Origin: a virus | Taxonomy: Duplodnaviria; Heunggongvirae; Uroviricota; Caudoviricetes | Virus record (IMG/VR): IMGVR_UViG_2534682234_000019 | Length of the DNA: 3,779 nt | Reading direction: 5' to 3' (one strand) | In this document: piece by piece, positions 3,001-3,779 of the stretch | Numbering within the stretch: the stretch's first letter is position 1 | How the letters are laid out: every line of letters begins with the position of its first letter | Program-made: the position numbers

Positions 3001-3779
3001 ACTTTGGTGATGATAGTGATTGCGAGAATCATGTCTGGTGAAATTGTGTGGATATGGTAATGGCTAAGGCAGCAGCAGAGCGCAACTAACAATCCTCGCA
3101 CTCGCGGGGATTTCTTTTATCTGAACTCGCTACGGCGAGTTTTGTTTTATGGAGACAAGAAATGTCAGATTTGGCTATGAAGGTTTTGAAATGGCAATCA
3201 ACTGGCGATGTCGGCATCAGTAGCGCAACTCTTGCCTCAATCGCATGTGGCCTGAAAAAGAATATCTATGGTCATGGCTTCGGTGCTCCACATGACGCAG
3301 CCGATTTCCGACGATGCGTTGCACTTGTTGAGCAGATTCCAGAAATCAGAGATTCATTCGACAAGGTTGCAAAGCGCGTTCCGGCATTCAAAGGAATCCT
3401 CAACGAATGGGATTCTCTCGTTGCTCTGTTGAAGTCTGAAATGAAGATACACGGAAACAAAGCACCAGAGACTTACAGAAGAATTAGCGAGTTACGCAAG
3501 GACTAACCACAGCCTCACACTCGATGAGGCCTGTACATATCTGATAGAGCCGCTATATGGCGGTTTCTTTTTGCCTGGAGAATTAAGATGACCGATACCA
3601 GCCTGATTCCTGAGAAAGAAGTGATGAACAAGCTCGGTGTTTCATCACGTCAGACAATCTGGAACTATACCAAACGGCACGGATTTCCGAAGCCAGTCAG
3701 AACCCACCCCAAATCATACCTTCGTGAAGCTGTTGAGGGGTGGATTCTTAACGGTGGCGTTAATCAGAAATGCTCCTGA

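What the first reader, a model, noticed from the sequence alone, without database searches (positions are those of the whole stretch)
3162..3506. Terminator-bracketed 114-aa orphan gene beside xis: candidate accessory (moron-like) function
This ORF has a good SD, sits between the tandem terminators (3094-3148) and a downstream hairpin plus weak terminator (3512-3572), and its product matches no family I recognise. Genes placed next to the excision/integration module of lambdoid prophages are often accessory, lysogenic-conversion, anti-defence or exclusion genes. Its insulation by RNA structures suggests it is an independently acquired cassette.
Basis: partly seen in the sequence, partly recalled or inferred. 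Interest (0 to 1): 0.6.

Follow-up and report, generated by a model that had tools for sequence, protein, structure and literature searches.

The report
Old uncharacterised phage gene ORF114
The 114-codon gene beside xis is real and well conserved, but it is not an orphan or a prophage-expressed "moron": it is "ORF114" of phages 434 and HK022, an early-operon accessory gene from a very large, unnamed phage protein family whose predicted fold resembles no solved structure and whose function is still unknown.

Summary
The ORF (3162-3506, GGAG 7 nt before the ATG), the tandem terminators (3091-3150), the hairpin (3512-3533) and the terminator (3547-3576) are all present. "Orphan" is wrong. The identical protein is in Stx phages 2851 and 1717. 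At 96-97% identity it is ORF114 of phage 434 (GenBank M60848) and gp32 of HK022. It is full length in 14% of complete E. coli genomes. It matches phrog_1229 and belongs to a family of about 4,600 clusters at 50% identity, including the C-terminal domain of N15 gp42 and members in virulent phages. dN/dS is about 0.1. AlphaFold gives a confident seven-helix domain (pLDDT 95) with no PDB neighbour, and there is no Pfam, NCBIfam or PADLOC match.

"Moron-like" is not supported. No promoter fits between the terminators and the SD, base composition is ordinary, and the flanking terminators correspond in sequence (tL4) or in position (t'I) to pL-operon terminators annotated in phage 434. The gene sits in a recombination-prone slot just before xis. 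It moves as a module, other phages carry unrelated genes there, and 933W-type Stx2 phages keep only codons 1-56.

Outside lambdoid phages it lies among early replication, recombination and anti-restriction genes, not beside integrases. Best reading: a dispensable delayed-early, host-directed accessory protein. Its biochemical mechanism is unresolved.

The parts
3091..3122 (+). Terminator-like hairpin 1 (stem 3091-3112, interrupted T-tail); first of the tandem pair equivalent to t-L4 of phage 434
   Evidence: Scan and RNA fold. Window 3089-3164 matches the segment upstream of HK022 gene 33 at 93%, which is the position annotated t-L4 in M60848.
3123..3150 (+). Terminator-like hairpin 2 (stem 3123-3142, tail TGTTTTAT) that runs directly into the SD
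   Evidence: The same tandem pair occurs on its own in front of an unrelated gene in E. coli strain 110.
3145..3164 (+). T-run plus GGAGA(C/T) SD box; left mosaic junction. It is repeated in HK022/434 in front of both ORF55 and ORF114. SD GGAG is at 3151-3154.
   Evidence: Two HK022 alignments overlap exactly here; see also the alignment and the sequence.
3162..3506 (+). ORF114 coding sequence (114 aa plus stop); all-alpha domain of the phrog_1229 / N15 gp42 C-terminal family
   Evidence: AF2 model has pLDDT 95.2 and pTM 0.88.
3162..3330 (+). N-terminal 56 codons, the only part kept in 933W-type Stx phages; internal mosaic junction at about 3331
   Evidence: Stx2-86 matches only 3145-3330. The 76-aa remnant is seen on at least 1000 contigs.
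3512..3533 (+). Hairpin without a T-run just after the stop codon; travels with the ORF114 module (conserved in HK022 and 434). The right mosaic junction is at about 3538-3542.
3547..3576 (+). Terminator-like hairpin plus T-tail upstream of xis, in the same position as t'-I of 434; belongs to the xis-side module
   Evidence: Query part 419-511 (window 3508-3600) occurs with the HTH gene alone in other genomes.
3588..3779 (+). AlpA-type excisionase/regulator (63 aa). In close relatives the convergent integrase overlaps its 3' end.

Best explanation
ORF114 is a genuine gene under purifying selection. It is the last cargo gene of the leftward early (pL) operon of this Stx-converting lambdoid phage. 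It has no promoter of its own and lies behind tandem terminators (tL4-type), so it should be made only when antiterminated (N-modified) transcription from pL reads through. That happens after infection or prophage induction, together with xis, and not in the quiescent lysogen. It occupies a recombination-prone slot just upstream of xis, into which different lambdoid phages place different small genes. It moves as a module bounded by a T-run/SD box on the left and a hairpin on the right. Its product is a compact seven-helix domain from a very large, unannotated phage family that both temperate and virulent phages of Proteobacteria and Actinobacteria carry in their early regions. Inferred mechanism: a dispensable, host-directed accessory protein acting during lytic development. 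It would bind a widely conserved ligand or host factor through its invariant polar residues (S20-S21, D45, D48, R51-C52, E93), most plausibly to counter a host defence or take over a host function. Shown here: the gene is real and conserved, the family is large, the fold has no known relative, the operon position is as described, no promoter is present, and the mosaic boundaries are mapped. Inferred: the timing of expression, the binding mode, and any anti-defence role.
For: Gene reality: dN/dS about 0.1, and the gene is full length in 762 of 5,426 complete E. coli genomes.

Operon position: the order is exo, DUF1317, DUF1382, DksA-like, Ea22, DUF551, ORF114, xis, all on one strand. Genes between exo and xis are transcribed early from pL (PMC8614690).

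No private promoter. The upstream terminators are homologous to tL4, and the downstream one stands where t'I stands in 434.

Module boundaries. Alternative occupants of the slot: and lambda ea8.5/orf55 (PMC8614690).

Family size and breadth.

Early-region contexts: N15 gp42 after an RNase_T+Lar gene; virulent 9NA-like phages after RdgC; Mu-like SuMu between gam and gemA/mor; a Vibrio phage between primase and helicase. The census of 32 loci shows NinB, SSB, RecT, YqaJ, DnaB, DNA methylases, Lar and dUTPase as neighbours.

Invariant residues across 77 divergent members. Confident model.

Dispensability: the gene is truncated in 933W-type phages.
Against: There is no direct expression data for this gene, and weak terminators could leak. 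No functional homologue exists, no partner gene recurs, and the domain fusions are uninformative. There is no PADLOC hit, and the one published accessory-gene screen I could check does not contain it. Several invariant residues (S20/S21, P43, D45, D48) sit at helix N-termini and may be structural capping residues rather than a binding site. I could not map them in 3D because model coordinates are not exposed. Deep conservation from Arthrobacter phages to E. coli phages fits a phage-intrinsic DNA-metabolism role as well as it fits an anti-defence role.
Confidence: 0.55

Rival explanations
1. It is a phage-intrinsic accessory factor for DNA replication, recombination or repair, for example a modulator of the nucleases or recombinases encoded next to it, rather than a host-directed effector.
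For: Neighbours are repeatedly DNA-metabolism genes: lambda-type exo/bet or ERF upstream; RdgC; RNase_T exonuclease; HNH; Metallophos; primase and helicase; RecT, YqaJ, DnaB, SSB and NinB. Conservation across phyla suits a universal substrate such as DNA.
Against: No single partner family recurs. Net charge is not conserved, with pI about 5.1-9.2, which argues against a generic DNA binder. The gene is patchy and readily lost or truncated. Early regions hold these genes anyway, so adjacency is weak evidence.
Confidence: 0.22
2. It is a lysis-lysogeny or induction modulator like the other exo-xis proteins (Ea22, Orf63, Orf61, Orf60a, Orf73/TraR), acting on host transcription or the cell cycle.
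For: It lies in the same operon segment. Plasmid-borne exo-xis regions of lambda and phi24B change lysogenisation and induction (PMC3824215 abstract; PMC4195576). Proteins of this region have been modelled as RNAP modulators (PMC8614690).
Against: The family is common in virulent phages that make no lysogeny decision. No HTH or RNAP-binder fold was detected.
Confidence: 0.1
3. It is a small enzyme with a catalytic or metal-binding cysteine (invariant R51-C52 with D45/D48) that modifies a nucleotide, DNA or a protein.
For: W11, S20, S21, P43, D45, D48, R51, C52, P60, W83 and E93 are invariant in 77 sequences at about 30% identity. An invariant cytoplasmic Cys next to an Arg is unusual for a purely structural residue. 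Neighbours include DNA-modification and nucleotide-metabolism genes.
Against: There is no invariant His or second Cys. The domain is only about 110 aa of helices. No known enzyme fold matches.
Confidence: 0.08
4. One reading: it is a moron-like, independently transcribed cassette expressed from the prophage (lysogenic conversion, exclusion).
For: It is bracketed by terminators, lies in a variable slot next to int/xis, and is a mobile module.
Against: It has no promoter and ordinary GC content. The terminators are internal pL-operon terminators. Homologues occur in virulent phages and far from integrases.
Confidence: 0.05

Closest known systems
ORF114 of phage 434 (GenBank M60848; CPT_434_33) and gp32 of HK022 (HK022_32)
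   Same: Orthologues at 96.5% and 97.4% amino-acid identity. Same position as the last gene before xis, same downstream hairpin, and a terminator in front of xis.
   Different: 434 and HK022 have ORF55 between tL4 and ORF114 and a lambda-type xis/int with the pI promoter. Here ORF55 is absent, xis is AlpA-type and int is convergent. None of these copies has an assigned function.
N15 gp42 ('N15 early protein', as noted in the HK022 record) and homologues in telomere phages
   Same: Same domain: tblastn gives 27% identity over residues 5-108, and all invariant residues are kept. BFVD's best structural match, Q7Y3W5, has TM-score 0.94 normalised to the query.
   Different: gp42 is 166 aa with an N-terminal extension. 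It follows an RNase_T+Lar gene in a different operon. Its function is also unknown.
Lambda Ea8.5 and Orf55, and the other exo-xis region proteins
   Same: They occupy the same slot between ea22 and xis in the pL operon, are non-essential, and are early transcribed (PMC8614690).
   Different: They are unrelated in sequence and fold. Ea8.5 has a homeodomain/zinc-finger fold (PMC4195576), whereas ORF114 is a seven-helix domain with no PDB neighbour. ORF114 has not been studied in the exo-xis literature I could search.
Morons of lambdoid phages (own promoter plus terminator, expressed from the prophage; definition from my own knowledge of Juhala et al. 2000)
   Same: A small gene inserted between conserved neighbours, followed by a terminator, and exchangeable.
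   Different: It has no promoter, ordinary base composition, and the same orientation as the early operon that contains it.
Small early phage counter-defence proteins (Abc2, Gam, Lar/Ral, nucleotide sponges)
   Same: Similar size, early-operon location, patchy distribution, and frequent adjacency to such genes.
   Different: There is no sequence or structural similarity to any of them. This is an analogy only.

Membership tests
phrog_1229 / 434-ORF114 / N15-gp42 C-terminal domain family (uncharacterised) | Full-length profile match | tested here: met
   phrog_1229 at E = 3e-51, residues 1-114 against profile positions 1-113 of 116; profile searches.
phrog_1229 / 434-ORF114 / N15-gp42 C-terminal domain family (uncharacterised) | Signature residues W11, G18, S20-S21, P43-x-D45-x-x-D48-x-x-R51-C52, P60, W83 | tested here: met
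   All are present in the window protein. They are invariant in alignment A2 and, except G18 (at least 90%), in A3.
Moron (autonomous prophage-expressed cassette) | Own promoter directly upstream of the gene | tested here: not met
   No + strand promoter-like site. The lenient scan gives at best 7/12, ending at 3150, and only 11 nt lie between the T-run and the ATG.
Moron (autonomous prophage-expressed cassette) | Own terminator downstream | tested here: met
   Hairpin at 3512-3533 and terminator-like site at 3547-3566. However, the latter stands where the operon terminator t'-I stands in 434.
Moron (autonomous prophage-expressed cassette) | Atypical base composition relative to its neighbours | tested here: not met
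   GC 0.461 and GC3 0.452, against a window GC of 0.466.
Moron (autonomous prophage-expressed cassette) | Expression in the uninduced lysogen | not testable with these tools
   Needs RNA-seq or 5'-end mapping of a lysogen.
Exo-xis (early-left, pL operon) accessory genes of lambdoid phages | Located between exo and xis, on the pL-transcribed strand | tested here: met
Exo-xis (early-left, pL operon) accessory genes of lambdoid phages | Non-essential and variable among related phages | tested here: met
   Truncated in 933W-type phages, replaced by unrelated genes elsewhere, and full length in only 14% of E. coli genomes.
Lambda Ea8.5 family | Homeodomain/zinc-finger fold and sequence similarity | tested here: not met
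   No PDB hit by sequence or structure. The model is a seven-helix domain with a single Cys.
Known defence and anti-defence protein families (PADLOC models; solved anti-defence structures) | Profile or structural match | tested here: not met
Any Pfam / NCBIfam family | Match at or near the gathering threshold | tested here: not met
   None of the 77 divergent members shares a recurrent weak Pfam hit.

The most novel reading that the evidence does not exclude
The ORF114 / N15-gp42 domain is a new protein fold that defines an unrecognised, very widespread class of phage early effector. On this reading it uses its invariant S-S / D-x-x-D-x-x-R-C patch to sequester or modify a universally conserved host molecule, such as an immune signalling nucleotide or a core DNA-repair or replication factor. 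That would make it a new counter-defence or host-takeover family, present in about 14% of E. coli genomes and in phages of several phyla.
Probability: 0.2. Interest if true: 0.7.

Novelty: new member of a known kind. Interest (0 to 1): 0.33.

Why it matters
On its own this is an ordinary hypothetical phage gene that has been in the databases since the 434 and HK022 int-xis sequences were deposited. It earns modest attention for four reasons. The family is very large (about 4,600 clusters at 50% identity). It is strongly conserved across phages of distant hosts. It has no Pfam model. Its confident predicted fold has no solved relative. [quoted passage not shown] If a function were found, it would annotate thousands of phage and prophage genes at once. 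The mapped slot architecture (tL4-type terminators, a variable gene, a hairpin, a t'I-type terminator, then xis) also gives a practical handle for finding other early cargo genes in lambdoid prophages.

Tried and rejected

3. 'Always paired with a metallophosphoesterase'. This was suggested by the Pseudomonas prophage and phage Dolphis. I rejected it because the N15 neighbour is RNase_T+Lar and the 9NA-like neighbour is RdgC.

4. Domain fusions as functional clues. Twenty long family members gave no Pfam hits, apart from coiled-coil noise in one and a single cellular FHA+TPR+DUF6585 protein.

5. RNA element. Rfam found nothing in the window.

6. DNA mimic or generic nucleic-acid binder. Rejected because charge is not conserved.

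7. Remote homology between ORF114 and the alternative 99-aa slot gene. Rejected (hhalign probability 0.7%).

8. Literature. Searches by accession, locus tag, peptide string, 'ORF114' and terminator names found nothing on this gene. The supplements of the Silas et al. accessory-gene screen do not contain it.

9. cII-dependent promoter. The window has no TTGC-N6-TTGC sites.

Full report
WHERE THE WINDOW COMES FROM. The 3,779 bases are the early-left (pL) arm of an Stx-converting lambdoid phage. They are 99% identical to Stx2a_WGPS8, and 98% to phages 1717 and 2851, over 86% of the window. In E. coli strain 472 the same prophage lies next to sbcB. Gene order on the + strand is: exo (3' part), DUF1317, DUF1382, a 93-aa ORF, a DksA/TraR-like zinc finger (1061-1282), Ea22-like (1279-2226), a DUF551 protein (2420-2974), the ORF in question (3162-3506), and an AlpA-type xis (3588-3779). 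In the relatives the integrase is convergent and overlaps the end of xis. This is the 'exo-xis region' of the literature, whose genes are transcribed early from pL (PMC8614690).

THE OBSERVATION. The ORF, its SD (GGAG at 3151-3154, 7 nt from the ATG), two tandem terminator-like hairpins (3091-3112 and 3123-3142, each with a T-rich tail), a hairpin just after the stop codon (about 3512-3533) and a third terminator-like site (3547-3566) are all present. Terminator-like sites are about twice as frequent in the window as in shuffled sequence (8 against 3.8 +/- 1.8). The ORF is a real gene. Against HK022 there are 10 synonymous and 4 non-synonymous differences (dN/dS 0.105), and against 434 there are 11 and 5 (0.117). 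Against P22-like copies, synonymous sites are saturated while dN is only about 0.33.

NOT AN ORPHAN. Pfam, NCBIfam, PADLOC and PDB sequences give nothing. However, the protein matches phrog_1229 over its full length (3e-51). The identical protein is in phages 2851 and 1717. It is 99% identical in mEp043, 97% in HK022, 96.5% in 434, 93% in Salmonella phage g341c, and about 62% in P22-like phages. It is 30-44% identical in about 150 Vibrio phages, in 9NA-like E. coli and Salmonella phages, and in Klebsiella phage Carvaje, Arthrobacter phages and Pseudomonas phage Dolphis. GenBank M60848 (phage 434 int-xis region) already names it 'ORF114', and the HK022 record calls it an 'N15 early protein homolog'. 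I confirmed that homology: the C-terminal ~105 residues of N15 gp42 align and keep every signature residue. A profile finds 895 clusters at 90% identity and 4,576 clusters at 50% identity (3,160 of them at E <= 1e-10) among 1.84 billion representatives. None has a Pfam domain. At least 80% of the 511-bp segment holding the gene (window 3090-3600) is present in 762 of 5,426 complete E. coli genomes. Every source calls it a hypothetical protein, and I found no paper that mentions it by accession, locus tag, peptide or name.

LOCAL ARCHITECTURE AND HISTORY. The block shared with HK022 and 434 is window 3145-3542, at 95% identity. It runs from the T-run/SD box to just past the first downstream hairpin. 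Separately, window 3089-3164 (the tandem terminators plus SD box) matches, at 93%, the segment upstream of HK022 gene 33, the ORF55 homologue. That position is annotated 't-L4' in the 434 record, and the terminator between ORF114 and xis is annotated "t'-I". The two alignments overlap on the 20-bp T-run + GGAGA box, which HK022 and 434 carry in front of both ORF55 and ORF114. So this phage has the 434/HK022 arrangement (tL4, ORF55, ORF114, t'I, xis) with ORF55 missing, presumably through recombination between the repeated boxes (inference).

The same tandem terminators precede an unrelated 99-aa gene in the same slot before xis-int in E. coli strain 110 (hhalign probability 0.7%). Lambda has ea8.5 and orf55 there (PMC8614690). 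In 933W-type Stx phages (Stx2-86, phiSTEC801) homology stops at window 3330, after codon 56, where a DNA-methyltransferase module takes over. The resulting 76-aa remnant is seen on at least 1000 contigs.

NOT A MORON. No sigma-70-like promoter lies between the terminators and the gene. Only 11 nt separate the T-run from the ATG. The best lenient candidate (TGAACT-17-TTTTAT, 7/12) would start transcription inside the SD-ATG spacer, and every better candidate lies upstream of both terminators. There are no cII-type sites, and GC and GC3 are ordinary. The gene is co-oriented with the pL operon and sits inside it. The bracketing terminators are sequence homologues of (tL4) or positional counterparts of (t'I) internal operon terminators annotated in 434, which antiterminating RNA polymerase reads through (established lambda biology, from my own knowledge). 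The expected expression is therefore delayed-early, N-dependent and together with xis. This is inferred, not measured.

CONTEXT SURVEY. In lambdoid and P22-like phages the homologue is always the last gene before xis/int. Elsewhere it is not:
- N15 gp42 follows an RNase_T+Lar gene.
- In virulent 9NA-like phages it follows RdgC in a cluster of small early genes.
- In Mu-like SuMu it lies between gam and gemA/mor.
- In a Vibrio phage it lies between primase and a DEAD helicase.
- In Pseudomonas it precedes a metallophosphoesterase.

In 32 dereplicated IMG/VR loci, an integrase lies within three genes downstream in 6 and an excisionase in 2. The other identifiable neighbours are NinB, SSB, RecT, YqaJ, DnaB, DNA methylases, Lar, ASCH, dUTPase and GemA, and no partner recurs. 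Terminator bracketing is found in 5 of 11 lambdoid/P22-like loci on each side, but in only 2 and 3 of 36 other loci. It is therefore a property of the slot, not of the gene.

WHAT IT MOST LIKELY DOES. The firm part (about 0.85) is that this is a dispensable early gene used during lytic development by both temperate and virulent phages, not a lysogeny-specific function. The mechanism is inference. I favour a host-directed accessory protein that binds a widely conserved ligand or host factor through the invariant S20-S21 / D45 / D48 / R51-C52 / E93 residues, possibly for counter-defence (about 0.3-0.35). The grounds are its small size, early position, patchy and replaceable distribution, and frequent company of anti-restriction and anti-nuclease genes (Lar, orphan methylases, Abc2, Gam). 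A phage-intrinsic DNA-metabolism accessory role is nearly as likely (about 0.2-0.25). A lysis-lysogeny modulator role like other exo-xis proteins (about 0.1) and a small cysteine enzyme (about 0.08) remain possible. The moron reading is unlikely (about 0.05). One caveat: several invariant residues sit at helix N-termini and could be capping residues, and I could not inspect the model in 3D.

VERDICT. This is a long-catalogued, never-characterised gene (434 ORF114 / HK022 gp32 / phrog_1229 / N15 gp42 domain) in the variable slot of the pL operon before xis. It is an ordinary finding for a phage genome. Its added value is that the family is very large, deeply conserved, absent from Pfam and structurally unassigned. 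Interest is about 0.33. The most novel reading not excluded is a new-fold, widespread early effector family (probability about 0.2).

Noticed in passing
window 2974-3060 (+), with a minus-strand promoter-like site at 3037->3010: A 28-codon, very hydrophobic ORF (MPPVKVVIITLVMIVIARIMSGEIVWIW) starts on the ATGA that overlaps the DUF551 stop and ends 30 nt before the tandem terminators. An antisense promoter-like site lies inside it. This layout recalls small membrane-peptide/antisense-RNA pairs. The segment is found in only 10 phage records, all close relatives, and is not annotated as a gene.
   Followed up: partly
window 2231-2748: This segment has no counterpart in the closest relatives. WGPS8 and E. 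coli 472 carry about 990 bp of different sequence here. It holds a 50-aa ORF (2265-2417) that matches phrog_34021 and phrog_1222, and weakly the C-terminus of a methyltransferase PHROG. It also holds the N-terminal half of an unusually long DUF551 protein (184 aa, against 116 aa in WGPS8).
   Followed up: partly
window 3145-3164; HK022 locus L002 about 2791-2810 and 2983-3002: A T-run + GGAGA(C/T) box (terminator tail plus SD) is repeated in front of successive small genes (ORF55, ORF114). It coincides with the mosaic junctions, so it may serve as a short recombination 'linker' that shuffles cargo genes in this slot.
   Followed up: partly
L012 (Stx2-86) 2474-3333; L013 (phiSTEC801) 2501-3327: In 933W-type Stx phages a DNA (adenine) methyltransferase module replaces ORF114 after codon 56. 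This leaves a 67-76-aa chimeric ORF that keeps all N-terminal signature residues and is extremely common in O157:H7. I did not test whether the remnant is expressed or functional.
   Followed up: partly
L097 1872-2171 (E. coli strain 110 prophage): An unrelated 99-aa hypothetical gene (WP_001303965.1) occupies the same slot, behind the same tandem terminators and before an excisionase and integrase. It is another uncharacterised cargo gene of this position.
   Followed up: partly
window 3760-3779 and beyond (L001 6729-7907, minus strand): The integrase of this phage type is convergent with xis and overlaps it by about 20 bp, unlike the co-oriented lambda xis-int. The prophage sits next to sbcB. 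Transcription of int would run antisense into xis and ORF114 unless it is stopped by the hairpins at 3512-3576.
   Followed up: no
protein P0177 (855 aa, from the representative search): One apparently cellular protein embeds the ORF114-type domain (residues 439-549) between an N-terminal FHA domain with TPR repeats and a C-terminal DUF6585. This is the only multi-domain context with named domains.
   Followed up: partly
window 388-410 and 983-1001 (+): Further terminator-like hairpins with T-tails lie inside or between the small exo-xis genes. This fits an operon studded with terminators that depends on antitermination.
   Followed up: no
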